Origin: Escherichia phage Gluttony_ev152
Sequence record: NC_073087.1
Length of the DNA stretch: 44,825 nucleotides
Direction: 5' to 3' (one strand)
Position 1 is the stretch's first letter. Each line of letters starts with the position of its first letter. The notes beneath the pieces were generated by a model that made no database searches, had not been told where the DNA came from, and saw nothing but the letters and a program-made list of their open reading frames with translations. The translations under genes and the position numbers were made by a program. Positions 965-26,085 of the stretch are shown here, piece by piece.

Positions 965-994
965 ACTATAGTGCAACCAACCTATTGGTTGCAA
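965..994 (-). promoter_or_regulatory. sigma70-like promoter candidate, TTGCAA-N18-TATAGT (minus strand)
   Basis: Minus-strand -35 TTGCAA (989-994) and -10 TATAGT (965-970), 18-nt spacer ending in TTGGTTGCAC. Confidence 0.5.
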
Positions 995-1452
995 GTGAAT
1001 TTTGCAACGTTTATTGAGTAAATTTTCGGGACCAAATCACCACACGCCCGACGAATTGCCGCGATGTTCTTCGGACAGTCTTCAATGATGACCAGTTCCG
1101 ACACGTCCGCATAGCAGACCATTTTGAAAACGGCGCACGCCTTAAACTCAGGCGGCGGGGTGTCGTCCAGCATGTGGCGCATGAACAATCGACCTACGGG
1201 GAAGACCTCCAATTGCTCGGCGGTGGTGTCCCAACATTCGCGCTGCCGGTTGGTCAGATACGCGATCTCGAAGCCTTGCTCTTTGTACATGCGCAGCAGC
1301 GGCAGCATATCCATGTTCAGATCTTCGCGGACGTGCGCTTTGTGCCACTTCGCCCAGAAGGTTGATTTCGTTTTTATCCCCGGCACCAGGTCGGCACGCG
1401 CATCGCTTGAGCCGTTAATAACGCCATCCAAATCGCAAATCAGTAATTTCAT
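982..1452 (-). CDS. HAD-superfamily hydrolase/phosphatase-like protein
   Basis: N-terminal LICDLDGV (DxDGV-type HAD motif I) in 156-aa track ORF; co-oriented with replication module. Confidence 0.7.
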   Translation of the reverse strand: MKLLICDLDGVINGSSDARADLVPGIKTKSTFWAKWHKAHVREDLNMDMLPLLRMYKEQGFEIAYLTNRQRECWDTTAEQLEVFPVGRLFMRHMLDDTPPPEFKACAVFKMVCYADVSELVIIEDCPKNIAAIRRACGDLVPKIYSINVAKFTCNQ

Positions 1453-1673
1453 TTTAAACTCTCAATAAGGGTGTAACGGGCGCTTCGCGCAGTAAAGGAG
1501 TTGCACACGAAATGGCAACGCTGAGTCATGACAAGCCAACCGGTGAGGTCAAGGCCCAGGATGTATTCGGGGCGAGACGCGCGCACCACACGATTGCGTC
1601 GCGGGTCAATACCGTAGTCTTTTTGCATTTGGTCTACTACCGCGGGGTCGCGGTCAACGATTAAGATATTCAA
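1449..1673 (-). CDS. hypothetical protein (74 aa)
   Basis: Track ORF overlapping neighbours by a few nt in an operon-like arrangement; no motif recognised. Confidence 0.45.
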   Translation of the reverse strand: MNILIVDRDPAVVDQMQKDYGIDPRRNRVVRASRPEYILGLDLTGWLVMTQRCHFVCNSFTARSARYTLIESLK

Positions 1674-2139
1674 GGAGTTCTCCTTCGCTCATTATTTCAA
1701 TTTGTGCGCTGCCGATGGGCGGCGCTTCGTCAAATATTATCAATTGCTGGCATTTGTTATTGCTCGGCCCGACTTCACCGGTGACGGCGTGAATGAATCT
1801 AATCCGCCAGTCCAGAAGAATTATCAGGTTTGCAGTCTTCCGGGCCAGCCTCGCCCACTTCGTCGACGTGTCCTGATTCAGCAGCATGACAGTCCGGCGT
1901 CCGTGCGCTGCGCACTCTACCCACGGCAGCGGATCGGAATACGGCGGATTGCACCACTTCCACCCTTTCAACTCGGACCAGTCCACATCAAGCGCGCTGT
2001 GTTCCGCCGTGAAGTAACGCGGTAGCAGGTGGTTTGCATCGCTTGCCGCCATATCGTAACGGAATCGGTACTTCCGACGAAGCGGTTTAAATAAAGCTGG
2101 CGGCGTGCGCCAGCTATCTTTTTGCTCACTCTTCTGCAT
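1654..2139 (-). CDS. DNA N6-adenine methyltransferase (phage Dam family)
   Basis: DSWRTP near N-terminus and NPPYS catalytic motif, hallmark of phage Dam-type MTases; 161 aa. Confidence 0.8.
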   Translation of the reverse strand: MQKSEQKDSWRTPPALFKPLRRKYRFRYDMAASDANHLLPRYFTAEHSALDVDWSELKGWKWCNPPYSDPLPWVECAAHGRRTVMLLNQDTSTKWARLARKTANLIILLDWRIRFIHAVTGEVGPSNNKCQQLIIFDEAPPIGSAQIEIMSEGELLEYLNR

Positions 2140-2584
2140 GATCTGGGTCTATCGCATACAGGGCAATTTTCTTGTCGCTGGACAGAACGCGCCGGACTCG
2201 GGCCATATCCGCCGGACCCAGCGGTCGGCCATCGGAATAGTAGCTGCCGTTCGCACGCCACGCTATCAGCACCAGGTCTTTCCGGTCGATCTTAGACTGG
2301 CGGCCCTTCGGGCGCACGTACGCCTCGGCCCGTTTGCAATGCTCGCGCAAACCTTCGGCTGTGAGTCGATTTAGTGCGACGGTGGTTGTGTACCCGGTGC
2401 GCTGCATAATACCCATCAACTCATACAGCAGATCGAAGCGCTCCTCTAATTCCTTGCGCGCCTTCTCCTCGCCTTCATAGCTCGCCAGGTAGGTGTCTGC
2501 CAGCGCGCTAACACGTTCGACCTGTTCGCGGGCTTCGAGGCATTGCGCGGCCCAGTAATTTTTCTCTTCTTGTAAAATTTTCAT
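2126..2584 (-). CDS. hypothetical protein (152 aa)
   Basis: Track ORF, tight coupling with flanking minus-strand genes. Confidence 0.55.
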   Translation of the reverse strand: MKILQEEKNYWAAQCLEAREQVERVSALADTYLASYEGEEKARKELEERFDLLYELMGIMQRTGYTTTVALNRLTAEGLREHCKRAEAYVRPKGRQSKIDRKDLVLIAWRANGSYYSDGRPLGPADMARVRRVLSSDKKIALYAIDPDHAEE

Positions 2585-2827
2585 TTATTTAATCTCCGTA
2601 GTGCGGATTTCCTTGCGAGGAATAAATTTGCCGTCTTTCTCGACCCAGCAAGTTCCGTAACGCCATTGGGTATTACGGCCTGTTTGCTCGACATATACGG
2701 TCTTGCATTCGTAGCGTTCCGTGTAGTAAATAGCCGCGGTAGGTACGAAAATACAAACGGCGATCATGAGGGTGAGTATCACCCAAAATCGAAGGTCGCC
2801 GTCGTAGTCGAAAAATAATGATTTCAT
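2585..2827 (-). CDS. small membrane protein
   Basis: Internal ATG (M15 of track ORF 2585..2869) preceded by GGAGA at proper spacing; hydrophobic segment WVILTLMIAVCIFVPTAAIYY. Confidence 0.5.
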   Translation of the reverse strand: MKSLFFDYDGDLRFWVILTLMIAVCIFVPTAAIYYTERYECKTVYVEQTGRNTQWRYGTCWVEKDGKFIPRKEIRTTEIK

Positions 2828-2871
2828 CGTGTTGTCTCCAGGTATTAAAAAGGGCGTCCAACCGGACACCC

Positions 2872-2900
2872 TTAAGATAATGCAACCAATCTAATTATGC
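2872..2900 (-). terminator. putative intrinsic terminator (minus strand)
   Basis: Forward AAAAAGGGCGTCCAACCGGACACCCTT; on minus strand a GC hairpin followed by T-run, downstream of gene ending at 2908. Confidence 0.4.
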
Positions 2901-2907
2901 AACCAAT

Positions 2908-3231
2908 TTACGAATAAAAATTTGGGTCGCGTGCAACGTCTACCAGATACAGATTGCTGATTCGGTTGCCGTAGTGGCCTGGTGTTCGCTGGCGGCACAC
3001 AACGGCGTAGCCTGGAGGAATTGTATTGCCGGTCGCGATAATCCACGCCACGCGTGCGCCCGATAGAGTTTTGCCGTTGCATTCGATGCGCGTTCCGCCA
3101 TCGGCAGTGTTAAGGTTGCCGATTTTGCAGCCGGTGGACTTCAGACGAATGACGCCGGTTTTGCTGTCGTAGGAGAATAACTGGTTAGTCATTGCAACCG
3201 AAAAATCAATGGCTTCGAATGTAGTATTCAT
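2908..3231 (-). CDS. putative AP2/HNH-associated DNA-binding protein
   Basis: IECNGKTLSGARVAWIIATG resembles the G-K-x-AHR-AW-x-G pattern of phage AP2-domain/HNH homing-endonuclease accessory domains; by eye only. Confidence 0.4.
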   Translation of the reverse strand: MNTTFEAIDFSVAMTNQLFSYDSKTGVIRLKSTGCKIGNLNTADGGTRIECNGKTLSGARVAWIIATGNTIPPGYAVVCRQRTPGHYGNRISNLYLVDVARDPNFYS

Positions 3232-3938
3232 TTTAAATTTTCCTCATTGACCGCTATCGCGAAGCCGCGCGGGGTGAGCGACCGGATTAATTTTGTGCGT
3301 GCTGATTTGCCTCCGAGGCGACTATACTGCTTCGAGTACCCTTTTTCAACGAAAACAGGTTTCTTCTCTGGCATACGGAAGCCGTTGCCGGTCCATAAGC
3401 AGGTCAGCTTCGGATATGAATCGCGGGCGTTGATGTATTCCGGGAAGAGCGGGTGTACGTCATCCTCCGGCAGATATCCCCCATACTCCCACGGGTCGAA
3501 TGAGTGATCCGGCTTGCGCCACTGGGTGGAAAGCACACTGCGCGGATTCTCAATCATATATGGCACTTCGAAGAAGTCACCCAGGTAAGCGGCGATCTTC
3601 GCGGTGCGCACCGCCTTAAGCTGAAAGGCTGGGTCTTTAGCTCGCTTGCGCGGGAAAGCGGGCGCACCGCTCACTGCCAGATCCGTGCACGGAGGAAACG
3701 CATAGATGATATCTGGCGTACCGAAATCGCCATTCATCGCACGGTCTACAAAGTCCAGATCGATAAACTCATTGCGATACCGGATTCCGCGACCATAAAT
3801 CCGGTAGTCAAGGTAAGACCCGTGGTCGGCTTCGGAGTAGTTGAAGCAATAACACTTATGCCCCATCTCGGCAGCACGCTCAATCATCAAGCCGCTGCCG
3901 TCAAACAATGACCAGATTGTCATTTTAGCAATAGTCAT
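3228..3938 (-). CDS. putative DNA methyltransferase (C5-cytosine-like)
   Basis: LFDGSG (SAM-binding FxGxG-like) and FPPCTDLAVSG (PC catalytic-type motif) plus ENPR; 236 aa is short for a canonical C5-MTase, so the assignment is tentative. Confidence 0.5.
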   Translation of the reverse strand: MTIAKMTIWSLFDGSGLMIERAAEMGHKCYCFNYSEADHGSYLDYRIYGRGIRYRNEFIDLDFVDRAMNGDFGTPDIIYAFPPCTDLAVSGAPAFPRKRAKDPAFQLKAVRTAKIAAYLGDFFEVPYMIENPRSVLSTQWRKPDHSFDPWEYGGYLPEDDVHPLFPEYINARDSYPKLTCLWTGNGFRMPEKKPVFVEKGYSKQYSRLGGKSARTKLIRSLTPRGFAIAVNEENLK

Positions 3939-5359
3939 TTGCGCGCCTTTTTAGCTTTCATGTATTCCATCAAGTCGTCCTGTATATCTTGCTTACTGTC
4001 GCGACGCTCGGCGACCAATTCGTCCAGTGTCCCGCGCGCCTGGATAATGTAGACGAATACCGGTCGAGGGTGTCCGGCCTGCATCTGGCGAACCGGCCCG
4101 ATACGTTCAACGATCTGCGAAAAGTGCTCAAAGTTCCAGGTATCGGAGAAGATTGCCAGGTGATGTCCGCCGTCCTGCAAGTTAAGGCCGTGGCCTGCCG
4201 ATGCCGGGTGTGCAAACATGATGGGGATCTCGCCTCTGTTCCACGCTTCCATATCCTTATTGCCCTGCTTACCCTTACCCAACGCGACGCCGTGCGGAAA
4301 TTTCTTCTTAAGACGTGCCAGGTCATGCTTATACTGATACGCAACGAGCAACGGCGCGCCGTTCAACTCCTCCACGATACTTTCCAGCGCGTCCAGTTTG
4401 GCGTCGTGAATCTTCACCCACTCGTCGGTCCTTTCGCCGTCTTCGTCCACCTTATACACAGCGCCGGAAGCAAGCTGAAGGCACTTAATTGTCTTAGATG
4501 CCGCGTTCGCCGCTTCCACTGTTCCGCTTTCCAGTTCGGCGAATAGCTCCGCTTCGAACTGGTCATAAATCTTGCGGGCTTTCTTCGGCAGGTCCACAAC
4601 AACAGGCGTATAGATTGGCTTGTCGCACCCGAAGTATTCAGCCGCGTCAACGGTGAGGGATACATCTGACAGACGTTGTTGTATTTCTTTCTCGGAGTTC
4701 TTTAGCGGGGCGTGCTGCATAGTGAAGCTGCCAGGCTTAACCGGCTTGCTAATGAACCAGCGATCGGTAAATGCCTTATAGCTACTGCCGAGGCGTTCGC
4801 CACCGTCGACAAACCACGTCTGACCCCATAAGTCTTTAAGCCCGTTTGGCGCTGGTGTGCCGGTAAGGTTAATCCAGCGCTTGACGTGTTTATGTGCAAT
4901 CGCTGCCAGTGCGCGGGCGCGCTTGCTCCCCTGCTTGCTACGATAGCCTTTCAGCTTAGTCGATTCATCGGCAACAACGACCGTAAAGGGCCACGCATCG
5001 CCGTAATAGTCGACCAGCCACTCAACCACATCGTAGTTAACACAAACCACGTTAGCGTCGCTCTCAAGCGCGGCAATACGGTACTTCTCCGGTCCGGTGC
5101 CGTCTACGACCAGCAGGGATGAGAACCGCCATTTCTCCTGTTCCGGGGGCCATGTACCCGACGCAACACGCAGCGGGGCCAGCACCAGTACGCGGTCCTC
5201 ATGATGGGACAGGACGCCAGTCTGGAACATTTTATTCAGCGCCCACATTGTCGCGCCGGTTTTACCGGATCCCATTGTCGCCCAGATATTACATCGCTTA
5301 TGCTTGAGGATGAACGCGGTTATCAACTTCTGATATTCGCGGCGTCGGAATCTTGCCAT
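3935..5359 (-). CDS. SNF2-family (DEAD/DEAH-like) helicase
   Basis: Walker A GSGKTG, DExx-type VVADEST, LTGTPAPN motif typical of SNF2 helicases; start set at internal ATG (M31 of track ORF) abutting upstream stop. Confidence 0.8.
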   Translation of the reverse strand: MARFRRREYQKLITAFILKHKRCNIWATMGSGKTGATMWALNKMFQTGVLSHHEDRVLVLAPLRVASGTWPPEQEKWRFSSLLVVDGTGPEKYRIAALESDANVVCVNYDVVEWLVDYYGDAWPFTVVVADESTKLKGYRSKQGSKRARALAAIAHKHVKRWINLTGTPAPNGLKDLWGQTWFVDGGERLGSSYKAFTDRWFISKPVKPGSFTMQHAPLKNSEKEIQQRLSDVSLTVDAAEYFGCDKPIYTPVVVDLPKKARKIYDQFEAELFAELESGTVEAANAASKTIKCLQLASGAVYKVDEDGERTDEWVKIHDAKLDALESIVEELNGAPLLVAYQYKHDLARLKKKFPHGVALGKGKQGNKDMEAWNRGEIPIMFAHPASAGHGLNLQDGGHHLAIFSDTWNFEHFSQIVERIGPVRQMQAGHPRPVFVYIIQARGTLDELVAERRDSKQDIQDDLMEYMKAKKARK

Positions 5360-5363
5360 GTCG

Positions 5364-5582
5364 TTATTCCGCCTTTTTCCAGACTTCGGTTTCACTGTTC
5401 CAGTTCCTTTTTGTAGCGTCGTAGTTGGTGGCGTGTCCGATGTGCACACCGGTAGCCCGGAAGCTCTTAAATTTTTGCCAGCACACCGTCAACGGCAGCG
5501 GATCATTCATGCCCGCGATAAACCATACGCGATCGCCCGGTTTACATTCGCCCAGCTTGGTGAGTCGGTAATGTTCTTTCAT
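5364..5582 (-). CDS. hypothetical protein
   Basis: Track ORF 5364..5597 begins at a TTG; ATG at 5582 has GGGAGA 7 nt upstream. Confidence 0.45.
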   Translation of the reverse strand: MKEHYRLTKLGECKPGDRVWFIAGMNDPLPLTVCWQKFKSFRATGVHIGHATNYDATKRNWNSETEVWKKAE

Positions 5583-5839: not shown

Positions 5840-6118
5840 CTATGCGACCAATTCAGCAACCAATAAATCGCAGTCGGATATGTTGTCGATAACGCGAACG
5901 TCAGCACCGCGGCGGGCCATTCGATCATGTTCACGTACCTGGTGCGGCTTAGGTTTTCCTCCGGGGCGCTTCACTTCGACGAACACTATTTTGCCGTTGA
6001 TGATAATAATCAGGTCGGGCGCACCCGCGCGCCCCTCCCATGCCAGTTTTCGGCAGAATCCGCCGACCTCTTTCACCCGTTTCATCAGGTGACTTTGAAT
6101 CTTGCCTTCTGGTGTCAT
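5840..6118 (-). CDS. VRR-NUC domain nuclease
   Basis: PDLIIIINGKIVFVEVKRPGG fits the PD-(D/E)XK VRR-NUC signature; ATG overlaps the polymerase stop (TAATG). Confidence 0.65.
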   Translation of the reverse strand: MTPEGKIQSHLMKRVKEVGGFCRKLAWEGRAGAPDLIIIINGKIVFVEVKRPGGKPKPHQVREHDRMARRGADVRVIDNISDCDLLVAELVA

Positions 6119-15188: not shown

Positions 15189-15265
15189 ATCCTGCGCGCA
15201 TTGGTTGCCGATATGGGAATTCCCATATCGCTAAAAGGTTAAATTTTGCGCGCATTGGTTGCCAT
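15189..15265. promoter_or_regulatory. direct repeat - 20-bp perfect palindrome - direct repeat, candidate protein-binding or origin element
   Basis: TGCGCGCATTGGTTGCC twice flanking GATATGGGAATTCCCATATC, immediately after primase/helicase stop. Confidence 0.4.
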
Positions 15266-15348
15266 TTTGAGTGTTTTTATCAGGTCGTATTGGTTGCCGT
15301 GTAGTGTGAATATAGTGAATAGTTATGCAGTTTTGTTGCATAAAGTAA

Positions 15349-15510
15349 GCGGGACAAAAAGCGGGACAAACAAGGGGCGGGACAAAGCGGGACAGCACCC
15401 CCGTCCCGCCCCTGATGGCGCGGCCTGGAGAGGAGCGGGACAGGCGGGACAACCCCCAGTCTTTCAGACTAGACGGGGGTCAATGGCCCCCCTCGTCTGA
15501 GACTGAATAA
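15349..15510 (+). repeat. noncoding cassette A: GCGGGACA direct-repeat array plus conserved 53-nt element
   Basis: Six direct and one inverted copy of GCGGGACA(A/G) within about 100 bp, followed by AGTCTTTCAGACTAGACGGGGGTCAATGGCCCCCCTCGTCTGAGACTGAATAA (15458-15510). Confidence 0.7.
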
Positions 15511-15665
15511 AATCCGGGGATTGCAAAATACACGGCAGCATGATGCGAATTGCGGTCGACGATGAACTAGGCAACCAATGCGAGTTGCATTATGCTGAGT
15601 GAAAAATGCGGTTTGCAGTCGCAGCAGATAGCGATCAACTTTTTCATGCGCGTGATTAATATTGG

Positions 15666-15694
15666 TTGCGCCCAGCCTGGCACCTTGCTATATT
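15666..15694 (+). promoter_or_regulatory. promoter candidate, TTGCGC-N17-TATATT
   Basis: Hexamers with 17-nt spacer; ATTGGTTGC motif overlapping -35 and again immediately after -10; leader TATATTGGTTGCACACCAACATGAGGAC nearly identical to the leader at 26033-26061 on the minus strand. Confidence 0.55.
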
Positions 15695-15722
15695 GGTTGC
15701 ACACCAACATGAGGACTGAACA

Positions 15723-26055: not shown

Positions 26056-26085
26056 TGCAACCAATATAGTGCAACCAATATGCGG
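26056..26085 (-). promoter_or_regulatory. promoter candidate for reverse-oriented ORF, TTGCAA-N18-TATATT
   Basis: Minus-strand hexamers with TTGGTTGCAC abutting -10 and repeated after it; drives ORF 25269..26033. Confidence 0.55.

What the first reader, a model, noticed from the sequence alone, without database searches (positions are those of the whole stretch)
1654..3938. Two DNA methyltransferase genes flanking an AP2/HNH-like gene
A Dam-type adenine MTase (DSWRTP/NPPYS) and a short putative C5-like MTase (FDGSG, PPC) lie 1 kb apart with a putative AP2-type DNA-binding protein between them. This is consistent with a genome-protection (anti-restriction) strategy by self-methylation; the short MTase is atypical in length.
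Basis: partly seen in the sequence, partly recalled or inferred. Interest (0 to 1): 0.4.

Follow-up and report, generated by a model that had tools for sequence, protein, structure and literature searches.

The report
Two known phage DNA methyltransferase genes
This stretch of an E. coli Dhillonvirus phage genome carries two DNA-methylating enzymes that are already annotated in more than 100 related phages, and the small gene between them is a conserved, apparently inactivated relic of a nuclease, so the finding is real but ordinary.

The parts
1654..2139 (-). Dam-family (PF05869) orphan N6-adenine DNA methyltransferase, 161 aa
   Evidence: Pfam PF05869 at E 2.4e-35 and PHROG 111 at E 3.5e-55. 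TIGR01712 scores 85.8 bits, below its 97.05 equivalog cut-off. D8xW10xT12P13, D29xAAS33 and N64PPYS68 are invariant in an alignment with the 933W-type Stx2 phage ORF-64 (35% identity) and the KarlJaspers Dam (34% identity). dN/dS is 0.02-0.16.
3228..3938 (-). Compact 'Dcm-like' C5-cytosine DNA methyltransferase, 236 aa. Motif I is F12xGSG16, the motif IV catalytic Cys is PPC84, motif VI is E130-N-P, and the C-terminal motif IX/X-like stretch is LGGKS..IRSLTPRGFAxAV.
2908..3231 (-). 107-aa HNH_3-derived protein. It lacks the catalytic Asp-His pair, the distal Asn and an AP2 domain. Its start overlaps the dcm stop (ATGA).
   Evidence: PHROG 99 at E 2e-16; Pfam HNH_3 only 13.2 bits; no AP2 match. 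An alignment with bona fide HNH_3(+AP2) relatives shows V78-C79 in place of D-H and the protein ending before the 'EN..N' stretch. It is present at >=80% identity in about 156 Dhillonvirus records. dN/dS is 0.025-0.076. ATGA overlap confirmed. AF2 model unusable, pLDDT 44.5.
2585..2827 (-). 80-aa ORF of unknown function between the two methyltransferase genes (94 aa if read from the GTG at 2869). It has a hydrophobic stretch that may span the membrane.
   Evidence: PHROG 18961 matches residues 15-94 of the long ORF. Oekolampad annotates the 243-nt version. GGAG lies 8 nt upstream of the ATG at 2827.
2126..2584 (-). 152-aa ORF of unknown function between the two methyltransferase genes. The 'DNA ligase' label on PHROG 10530 is unsupported here.
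   Evidence: PHROG 10530 at E 1.6e-90, but no Pfam or NCBIfam hit even at E<=10. It is the most divergent gene of the block, at 61-90% aa identity.
3935..5359 (-). SNF2-family DNA helicase. Its stop overlaps the dcm start (ATGA). It heads the helicase-dcm-HNH-like unit.
   Evidence: Pfam SNF2-rel_dom at E 2e-10 and PHROG 62 at E 3e-157. Start set at M31 following the Oekolampad annotation. ATGA overlap confirmed.
2846..2907 (-). Intergenic spacer holding two direct copies of ATTGGTTGCA (2907-2898 and 2890-2881) and a terminator-like hairpin plus U-run (about 2872-2846). It probably divides the block into two transcription units.
   Evidence: Sequence read. The motif gives 18 hits against 3.0 +/- 1.6 expected. 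RNA fold -20.2 kcal/mol, z -2.2. The consensus scan did not list the hairpin.

Best explanation
The region is part of the minus-strand replication module of a Dhillonvirus coliphage. It carries two independent orphan DNA methyltransferases that use S-adenosylmethionine to mark newly replicated phage DNA.

1. A PF05869 Dam-family enzyme, which makes N6-methyladenine, most likely at GATC.
2. A compact (236 aa) C5-cytosine methyltransferase of the widespread phage 'Dcm-like' family, which makes 5-methylcytosine, probably at CCWGG-type sites.

Shown here: family membership, intact catalytic motifs, the C5-methyltransferase fold, strong purifying selection, and tight translational coupling of dcm to the upstream helicase.

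Shown elsewhere for homologues: the 54%-identical K42 Dcm raises 5mC on DNA. Virions of phage KP36, which carries members of both families, hold DpnI-sensitive and EcoRII-resistant DNA.

Inferred: the benefit is full methylation of fast-replicating DNA. This would protect against GATC- and CCWGG-cutting restriction systems, especially in hosts or moments where host Dam or Dcm is absent or limiting. The cost is that the cytosine methyltransferase can be sensed by retron Ec86.

The 107-aa gene between them does not appear to belong to the methylation function. It is an HNH_3-family derivative that has lost the nuclease catalytic pair and the AP2 domain. It is ancestrally linked to the helicase and is kept by selection for an unknown, probably non-nucleolytic, role.
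For: - Dam: Pfam E 2.4e-35, with NPPY and DxWxTP motifs conserved against the 933W-type and KarlJaspers Dam.
- Dcm-like family: more than 2,880 clusters, with invariant FxGSG, PPC, ENP and C-terminal motifs.
- 20 of 33 family members weakly hit PF00145, and at most one member hits any other Pfam family.
- 54% identity over 234 of 236 residues to Bas06_0055. That protein carries exactly the K42 Dcm residues C82/E128/K175/K176.
- In K42, Dcm expression raised 5mC on msDNA by LC-MS, and escaper phages had disrupted dcm (bioRxiv 10.1101/2023.08.16.553469).
- KP36 encodes homologues of both enzymes, at 44% and 28% identity. Its DNA is cut by DpnI and resistant to EcoRII (PMC3620542).
- dN/dS is 0.01-0.16 for both methyltransferases.
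- GATC and CCWGG are not avoided: 161 against 165 expected for GATC, and a Markov ratio of 0.93 for CCWGG.
- HNH-like gene: D-H is replaced by V-C, there is no AP2 domain, it is fixed in the genus, and dN/dS is 0.03-0.08.
- Loci L011 and L012 place it directly after the helicase. The 8.6-kb L012 locus holds no Dam or Dcm, and no Dcm sits between the helicase and the HNH-like gene on the 1-kb L011 contig.
Against: - No methylation data exist for this phage or, as far as I could find, for any Dhillonvirus.
- Specificity (GATC, CCWGG) is by analogy only. The K42 study did not map the methylated site directly.
- The K42 study used dcm+ MG1655, where host Dcm did not give the same msDNA methylation. 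The phage enzyme may therefore differ from host Dcm in specificity or substrate.
- The KP36 result is confounded by host Dam and Dcm, and its authors credited the host.
- BASEL phenotyping found Dhillonvirus comparatively sensitive to the restriction-modification systems tested, so any protection is narrow.
- The window protein itself has no significant Pfam PF00145 hit.
- The second Lys of the K42 'KK' pair is Leu178 here.
- At least one Dhillonvirus record (mckay) carries a frameshifted dcm, so the gene is dispensable in the laboratory.
Confidence: 0.78

Rival explanations
1. The methyltransferases serve the phage's own DNA transactions rather than anti-restriction. Rapid full Dam methylation could keep MutHLS mismatch repair from cutting recombining or replicating phage DNA, or it could time replication, packaging or gene expression. 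Cytosine methylation could tune similar processes.
For: - Both genes sit inside the replication module and are translationally coupled to replication genes.
- E. coli hosts already have Dam and usually Dcm, so extra protection seems partly redundant.
- BASEL saw no simple link between methyltransferase genes and restriction resistance in the related Drexlerviridae.
Against: - No regulatory GATC or CCWGG clustering was looked for or seen.
- A syntenic relative (L012) runs the same replication module with no Dam or Dcm in the 8.6 kb examined, so they are not needed for replication.
- A dcm frameshift is tolerated in mckay.
Confidence: 0.15
2. The 236-aa enzyme is a cytosine-C5 transferase, but its specificity, substrate or cofactor differs from host Dcm. 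It might recognise a shorter or different site, prefer hairpin or single-stranded DNA, or transfer a group other than methyl.
For: - The region between motif VIII and the C-terminal motifs is only about 75 residues and is unrelated in sequence to known target-recognition domains.
- In the K42 work, msDNA was poorly methylated in dcm+ MG1655 until the phage enzyme was expressed.
Against: - LC-MS in the K42 study detected 5mC.
- Mutating the CCTGG motif of the msDNA abolished defence.
- KP36 DNA is fully EcoRII-resistant.
- Phages with this gene plaque on K-12 MG1655. K-12 carries McrBC and Mrr (my own knowledge), which would restrict many non-Dcm 5mC patterns.
Confidence: 0.2
3. The three genes form one unit. 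One version is a methyltransferase-protected homing or restriction-like nuclease cassette, with HNH as the nuclease and Dcm or Dam as its antidote. The other is the 107-aa protein acting as a DNA-recognition partner of the mini-methyltransferase.
For: - dcm and the HNH-like gene overlap by ATGA, and both are fixed in the genus.
- Public records annotate the ORF as an HNH or homing endonuclease.
Against: - The D-H catalytic pair and the distal Asn are missing, and there is no AP2 domain.
- The HNH-like gene follows the helicase without any dcm between them in L011 and L012.
- The Dcm-like family occurs in about 1,500 phage records, while the HNH-like protein occurs only in Dhillonvirus.
- K42 Dcm alone sufficed for methylation.
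- A terminator-like hairpin separates the HNH-like gene from the Dam-containing unit.
Confidence: 0.04
4. The 107-aa ORF is a decaying pseudogene remnant of a mobile HNH homing endonuclease and has no function.
For: - It is truncated relative to HNH_3+AP2 relatives and lacks catalytic residues.
- One record (SSL-2009a, P0125) has a frameshifted C-terminus.
Against: - dN/dS is 0.025-0.076 at dS up to 1.8. That is as constrained as the helicase and the methyltransferases.
- It is intact in about 156 records.
- Relatives are conserved at the same position in more distant phages.
Confidence: 0.05

Closest known systems
Phage K42 / KarlJaspers (Bas06_0055) 'Dcm-like C5 cytosine methyltransferase', the reported trigger of retron Ec86 (Eco1)
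   Same: - Same length (236 aa, 711-bp gene).
- 54% identity over 234 of 236 residues.
- Same catalytic Cys (C82 there, C84 here), Glu of ENP (E128 there, E130 here) and first Lys (K175 there, K177 here).
- Same PHROG family.
   Different: - It comes from a different phage family (Drexlerviridae, Hanrivervirus) and a different gene neighbourhood.
- The second Lys (K176) is Leu178 here.
- No experiment has been done on the Dhillonvirus protein.
Canonical C5-cytosine DNA methyltransferases (Pfam PF00145: M.HhaI, M.HaeIII, DNMT3A/3B catalytic domain)
   Same: - Motif I FxGxG, motif IV Pro-Cys, motif VI Glu-Asn-x and a C-terminal helix equivalent to motif X, all in the same order.
   Different: - It is about 50-90 residues shorter than the smallest solved domains (the solved DNMT3 chains are 267-291 residues, M.HhaI 327).
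- It has no significant PF00145 score.
- ENP replaces ENV, only a single Arg (WRKP) sits where QxRxR is expected, and a short unrelated insert replaces the target-recognition domain.
Phage Dam family PF05869. From my own knowledge the members studied experimentally are the HP1, T1 and VT2/933W Dam enzymes.
   Same: HMM match above the cut-off, with NPPY, DxWxTP and DxAAS motifs conserved against the 933W-type ORF-64 and the KarlJaspers Dam.
   Different: - At 161 aa it lacks the roughly 50-residue N-terminal extension and the internal insertion of the T1-like/KarlJaspers/KP36 versions (233-243 aa).
- It is below the TIGR01712 equivalog cut-off.
- GATC specificity is untested.
Klebsiella phage KP36 (Webervirus) gp59 Dam plus gp74 methyltransferase
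   Same: - It carries one member of each of the two families (28% and 44% identity).
- Its virion DNA behaves as Dam- and Dcm-methylated (DpnI cuts, EcoRII does not).
   Different: - The genes are far apart on opposite strands.
- The 2013 authors did not recognise gp74 as a cytosine methyltransferase and credited host Dcm.
HNH_3 (+AP2) phage homing endonucleases (Pfam PF13392 + PF00847; PHROG 99)
   Same: The N-terminal beta-rich region and the '..RVAW..G..P.G....NR..NL' core align with bona fide members.
   Different: - Catalytic D-H is replaced by V78-C79, with a two-residue insertion next to His86 (…PGHYG…).
- The protein ends before the metal-binding 'EN..N' stretch.
- There is no AP2 domain.
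- It is not sporadic: it is fixed in the genus and under purifying selection.

Membership tests
Phage Dam, Pfam PF05869 | Score above the Pfam gathering threshold over most of the model | tested here: met
   122.1 bits against a 28.1-bit cut-off; residues 3-142 match model positions 5-151 of 169.
Phage Dam, Pfam PF05869 | Catalytic (D/N)PPY motif and the N-terminal DxWxTP motif | tested here: met
   N64PPY67 and D8xW10xT12P13 are invariant in the alignment with the Stx2 phage ORF-64 and the KarlJaspers Dam.
Phage Dam, NCBIfam TIGR01712 equivalog | Score above the equivalog cut-off | tested here: not met
   85.8 bits against a 97.05-bit cut-off. It is a family member but not a certified equivalog.
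Phage Dam, Pfam PF05869 | m6A formation at GATC | not testable with these tools
   Needs methylome data or DpnI/MboI digests of DNA grown in a dam- host.
C5-cytosine DNA methyltransferase (PF00145 superfamily) | Significant match to the PF00145 HMM | tested here: not met
   The window protein has no hit even at E<=10. 20 of 33 family members hit weakly, best E 1.3e-6.
C5-cytosine DNA methyltransferase (PF00145 superfamily) | Motif I FxGxG, motif IV Pro-Cys nucleophile and motif VI ENV-type Glu, in canonical order | tested here: met
   F12-G14-S15-G16, P82-P83-C84 and E130-N131-P132 are invariant in 33 sequences. ENP is seen instead of ENV.
C5-cytosine DNA methyltransferase (PF00145 superfamily) | C5-methyltransferase fold | tested here: met
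   [not shown]
C5-cytosine DNA methyltransferase (PF00145 superfamily) | Recognisable target-recognition domain between motifs VIII and IX | tested here: inconclusive
   Only about 75 residues (148-222) with family-specific conserved motifs (PWEYGGYLPxxD, RDxYPK, LGGKS) and no similarity to known target-recognition domains.
C5-cytosine DNA methyltransferase (PF00145 superfamily) | 5mC formation in DNA | not testable with these tools
   Reported for the 54%-identical K42 Dcm by LC-MS. Not tested for this protein.
Phage compact 'Dcm-like' family (PHROG 757; K42 Dcm) | Full-length similarity and a length of about 226-250 aa | tested here: met
   PHROG 757 at E 7.4e-84. 54% identity over 234 of 236 aa to Bas06_0055. 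The best 120 family matches are 226-259 aa apart from five shorter entries.
Phage compact 'Dcm-like' family (PHROG 757; K42 Dcm) | Residues mutated in the inactive K42 quadruple mutant (C82, E128, K175, K176) | tested here: inconclusive
   C84, E130 and K177 are conserved. The K176 equivalent is L178 here, and that column is variable across the family.
HNH_3 homing endonuclease (PF13392, usually with AP2 PF00847) | Score above the Pfam threshold | tested here: not met
   13.2 bits against 24.8, covering only model positions 5-21 of 46. PHROG 99 at E 2e-16 shows the relationship.
HNH_3 homing endonuclease (PF13392, usually with AP2 PF00847) | Catalytic Asp-His pair and a distal metal-binding Asn of the beta-beta-alpha-Me site | tested here: not met
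   The alignment with bona fide HNH_3 proteins puts V78-C79 at the D-H position, and the protein ends before 'EN..N'.
HNH_3 homing endonuclease (PF13392, usually with AP2 PF00847) | AP2 DNA-binding domain | tested here: not met
   No AP2 hit at E<=10. Relatives P0133 and P0134 carry AP2 C-terminal to HNH_3, where this protein has already ended.
HNH_3 homing endonuclease (PF13392, usually with AP2 PF00847) | Sporadic (mobile) distribution among close relatives | tested here: not met
   Present at >=80% identity in about 156 of about 161 matching Dhillonvirus records, at the same position. dN/dS is 0.025-0.076.
Restriction-modification system | A cognate active endonuclease next to the methyltransferase | tested here: not met
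   The only nuclease-like neighbour lacks its catalytic residues. Both methyltransferases are therefore orphans.

The most novel reading that the evidence does not exclude
The compact 236-aa cytosine methyltransferase may not be a simple copy of host Dcm function. With only a roughly 75-residue non-canonical insert in place of a target-recognition domain, it may have a different or relaxed site preference. It may also prefer DNA hairpins or replication intermediates. That would explain why the phage enzyme, and not the host Dcm of MG1655, methylates retron msDNA and sets off Ec86. A secondary possibility is that the selected, catalytically stripped HNH_3 derivative is a domesticated DNA-binding accessory of the SNF2 helicase.
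Probability: 0.2. Interest if true: 0.45.

Novelty: already known. Interest (0 to 1): 0.18.

Why it matters
It matters little as a discovery. The same three genes are annotated as a Dam-like methyltransferase, a homing or HNH endonuclease and a Dcm-like methyltransferase in more than 100 deposited Dhillonvirus genomes. One record encodes a 100%-identical cytosine methyltransferase.

Three practical points follow:
- Phage-therapy and defence-system studies should expect Dhillonvirus DNA to carry extra m6A and 5mC.
- The cytosine methyltransferase is a likely liability against retron Ec86-type defences.
- The compact C5-methyltransferase family is very abundant (more than 2,800 clusters, about 1,500 phage genomes) but is missed by Pfam and NCBIfam. 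It also has no directly mapped specificity or solved structure.

Tried and rejected
- Sequence searches of the 236-aa protein and of its family profile against PDB gave only non-significant hits (E 0.47 and 1.1-1.5). The Dam ORF gave none.
- NCBIfam had nothing for the 236-aa, 107-aa, 152-aa or 94-aa ORFs.
- AlphaFold2 of the 107-aa protein on a 6-sequence alignment gave pLDDT 44.5, so no fold search was attempted.
- CCWGG looked 2.4-fold enriched against dinucleotide shuffles (157 against 66 +/- 8). A third-order Markov expectation explains it (ratio 0.93), so I dropped it as evidence of specificity.
- The word-indexed homologue search for the 107-aa protein found only Dhillonvirus copies. 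The exhaustive search was needed to reach true HNH_3 relatives.
- Literature searches found no methylome or restriction-digest data for any Dhillonvirus. Searches for the classic HP1, T1 and 933W Dam papers returned only citations.
- I considered and rejected the idea that the HNH-like gene is a mobile insertion between the methyltransferases. Distribution, selection and synteny all argue against it.
Full report
**Identity of the window.** A megablast of 1400-5500 against the phage collection finds 161 records. Nearly all are Escherichia or Shigella phages, and the records I examined are classified in the genus Dhillonvirus (HK578-like siphoviruses). The best match is phage welsh, at 96.0% identity over 100% of the query. 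The window (44,825 bp) is the size of a whole Dhillonvirus genome. Its gene content parallels the 65-gene annotation of phage Oekolampad (Bas18). In those public records the region is already annotated as helicase, 'Dcm-like C5 cytosine methyltransferase', 'putative homing/HNH endonuclease', two hypothetical proteins and 'Dam-like N6-adenine methyltransferase'. One record, vB_EcoS-UDS3lw, encodes a cytosine methyltransferase 100% identical to the one in the window.

**Checking the observation.** All the genes lie on the minus strand.
- ORF 1654-2139 (161 aa) contains DSWRTP (residues 8-13) and NPPYS (residues 64-68).
- ORF 3228-3938 (236 aa) contains FDGSG (residues 12-16) and PPC (residues 82-84).
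- The two ORFs are 1,088 bp apart.
- Three ORFs lie between them, not one: 2908-3231 (107 aa), 2585-2827 (80 aa; 94 aa from an upstream GTG) and 2126-2584 (152 aa).
- The block is tightly packed. The helicase stop and the dcm start share ATGA (3938-3935), and the dcm stop and the 107-aa ORF start share ATGA (3231-3228).
- The only real gap is 2828-2907. It holds two direct copies of ATTGGTTGCA and a hairpin followed by a U-run (-20.2 kcal/mol, z -2.2).
- The two methyltransferase genes therefore probably belong to two successive transcription units. This is an inference.

**The adenine methyltransferase.**
- It matches Pfam PF05869 (Dam) at E 2.4e-35, well above the cut-off, and PHROG 111 at E 3.5e-55.
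- It is below the NCBIfam equivalog cut-off for TIGR01712 (85.8 against 97.05 bits).
- It aligns with the 933W-type Stx2 phage ORF-64 (35% identity) and the KarlJaspers Dam (34% identity). D8xW10xT12P13, D29xAAS33 and N64PPYS68 are invariant.
- It is a short version of the family. It lacks the N-terminal extension and an internal insertion seen in T1-like phages.
- tblastn finds relatives in 1,747 phage records.
- That family members from HP1, T1 and VT2/933W methylate GATC rests on my own knowledge of the older literature. I could only retrieve citations to it.

**The cytosine methyltransferase.**
- The protein has no Pfam, NCBIfam or PDB sequence match.
- It matches PHROG 757 at E 7e-84.
- It has more than 2,880 homologous clusters in the 5.8-billion-protein collection. 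The best 120 are 226-259 aa long apart from five shorter entries.
- It has relatives in 1,510 phage records, from coliphages to Klebsiella, Salmonella and Vibrio phages.
- Twenty of 33 diverse members hit PF00145 weakly (best E 1.3e-6), and at most one member hits any other Pfam family.
- In a 33-sequence alignment the invariant residues are motif I (F12, G14, S15, G16), motif IV (P82-P83-C84-T85), motif VI (E130-N131-P132), W140-R141 and a C-terminal LGGK...IRSLxPR block.
- The AlphaFold2 model is confident (pLDDT 90.4, pTM 0.89).
- The first 50 Foldseek matches in PDB are all C5-cytosine methyltransferases (E about 1e-6).
- The enzyme is compact because the segment between motif VIII and the C-terminal helices is only about 75 residues. 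That segment is unrelated to known target-recognition domains.

**Experimental anchor.** A preprint on retron Ec86 (bioRxiv 10.1101/2023.08.16.553469) reports the following.
- Escapers of phage K42 (a KarlJaspers strain) disrupt a 711-bp 'Dcm-like' gene.
- Expression of that protein is toxic only with the retron present.
- It raises 5mC on the msDNA by LC-MS.
- A C82A/E128A/K175A/K176A mutant is inert.
- 34 of 35 Ec86-sensitive phages encode such a Dcm.

I fetched KarlJaspers (Bas06). Its Bas06_0055 is 236 aa and has C82, E128, K175 and K176 at exactly those positions. It is 54% identical to the window protein over 234 of 236 residues. The equivalents here are C84, E130, K177 and L178.

A second, weaker anchor is Klebsiella phage KP36. 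It encodes a PF05869 Dam (28% identity) and gp74, a 44%-identical member of the compact family. Its virion DNA was cut by DpnI and was completely resistant to EcoRII at 155 predicted sites (PMC3620542). The authors did not recognise gp74 and attributed the cytosine methylation to the host, so the result is confounded.

**Purpose.**
- Self-methylation is well supported. Anti-restriction is inferred.
- GATC is not depleted: 161 observed against 165 +/- 11 by dinucleotide shuffling, and 0.75 of the Markov expectation.
- CCWGG is at 0.93 of its third-order Markov expectation. The apparent 2.4-fold excess over dinucleotide shuffles reflects CCAG/CTGG richness.
- The absence of site avoidance fits protection by methylation but is not proof.
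- The BASEL paper found Dhillonvirus phages comparatively sensitive to the type I and type II systems it tested. [quoted passage not shown] Any protection must therefore be limited to enzymes blocked by these particular marks.
- Both genes are under strong purifying selection: dN/dS is 0.02-0.16 for dam and 0.011-0.053 for dcm, against four Dhillonviruses.
- The genes are nonetheless accessory. A metagenomic relative whose helicase is 69% identical (L012) has the same module of polymerase, helicase, small ORF, HNH-like, further ORFs and HAD phosphatase. It has no Dam or Dcm in the 8.6 kb examined.
- Phage mckay has a 1-nt deletion in an A5 run that truncates Dcm before its conserved C-terminus. 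This is either a sequencing error or a natural loss.
- Several truncated clusters also exist, for example P0015 (148 aa, 24 member sequences).

**The gene in the middle.**
- The 107-aa ORF has no AP2 signal at all, and only a sub-threshold partial HNH_3 match. PHROG 99 (HNH endonuclease) matches at E 2e-16.
- Close homologues exist only in Dhillonvirus, where about 156 records carry it at >=80% identity in the same position.
- An exhaustive phmmer search of 1.84 billion representatives found 16 hits.
- The more distant hits are bona fide HNH_3 proteins, two of them with a C-terminal AP2 domain.
- In the alignment these relatives show the pattern aHRvAW...(I/L)DH.N..DNRI.NLR...EN..N. The window protein has GARVAW...V78-C79...G88-N89-R90-ISNL and then ends.
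- The Asp-His pair that binds metal and activates water in HNH nucleases is therefore gone. That role rests on established knowledge of the beta-beta-alpha-Me site, for example in I-HmuI. The distal Asn and the AP2 domain are absent as well.
- The ORF is nevertheless as constrained as the helicase, with dN/dS 0.025-0.076 at dS up to 1.8.
- In L011 and L012 its relatives sit directly after the SNF2 helicase with no methyltransferase between them.
- I conclude that it is a domesticated, probably non-nucleolytic HNH_3 derivative that belongs with the helicase. The dcm gene appears to have been inserted between them. Its actual role is unknown, and the structure prediction failed (pLDDT 44.5).

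**Comparison and verdict.**
- Both methyltransferases are members of known families, and the gene arrangement is already in public annotation. The finding is correct in its core and not new.
- The 'AP2' label and the idea of a three-gene unit are not supported.
- Two modest open points remain: the unmapped specificity of the very compact C5-methyltransferase family, and the function of the selected, catalytically stripped HNH_3 derivative.
- On specificity, the phage enzyme, but apparently not host Dcm in MG1655, methylated retron msDNA.

Noticed in passing
window 972-993, 2881-2907, 5843-5864, 12384, 15200-15701, 16225, 18796, 26056-26079, 42166: The 10-mer ATTGGTTGCA occurs 18 times (<=1 mismatch) against 3.0 +/- 1.6 expected. 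It is often found in pairs 12-17 bp apart in intergenic gaps, including the gap between the HNH-like gene and the next ORF. It is probably the operator or promoter element of a phage regulator.
   Followed up: partly
window 2846-2872 (minus strand): An intrinsic-terminator-like hairpin (10-bp stem, GGUU loop, U5 tail; -20.2 kcal/mol, z -2.2) sits between the HNH-like gene and the 80-aa ORF. It would split the block into two transcription units. The consensus scan did not list it.
   Followed up: partly
L008 (phage mckay) about 3395-3450, corresponding to window about 3345: The mckay dcm has a 1-nt deletion in an A5 run (GAAAAAGG to GAAAAGG). The resulting frameshift removes the conserved C-terminal LGGKS...IRSLTPRGFA block. 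Truncated clusters (148-195 aa) also appear among the homologues. This could be sequencing error, or natural loss of a gene that retron Ec86 can sense.
   Followed up: partly
whole window: CTTGG/CCAAG is at 0.37 of its third-order Markov expectation (z -4.5), while CCWGG is at 0.93. CTAG is at 0.32. The CTWGG deficit resembles the very-short-patch-repair signature known from E. coli.
   Followed up: no
window 2126-2584 (minus strand): The 152-aa ORF matches PHROG 10530, which is labelled 'DNA ligase', and some GenBank records copy that name. It has no Pfam or NCBIfam ligase signal and is far too small, so the label looks like annotation drift.
   Followed up: partly
L010 (Klebsiella phage KP36) 47552-48244: KP36 gp74 is a 44%-identical member of the compact C5-methyltransferase family. 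The 2013 paper reported that KP36 lacks a cytosine methyltransferase and credited host Dcm for the complete EcoRII resistance. The phage enzyme is a simpler explanation.
   Followed up: yes
L012 1513-4682 and L011 2-612: Metagenomic relatives (helicase 69% and 78% identical) keep the order helicase, then HNH-like. In L012 the module continues to the HAD phosphatase and holds no Dam or Dcm in the 8.6 kb examined. L012 has a 60-aa DUF7167 ORF where dcm sits in Dhillonvirus.
   Followed up: yes
literature, bioRxiv 10.1101/2023.08.16.553469: The retron Ec86 experiments were done in MG1655, which from my own knowledge is dcm+. The msDNA nevertheless had low 5mC until the phage enzyme was expressed. 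The CCWGG specificity of the phage enzyme was assumed rather than mapped.
   Followed up: no
window 2585-2869 and 3935-5449 (minus strand): The mechanical ORF calls overextend two genes. The 94-aa ORF most likely starts at the ATG at 2827 (80 aa, with GGAG 8 nt upstream). The helicase most likely starts at Met31 (474 aa), as annotated in Oekolampad.
   Followed up: yes
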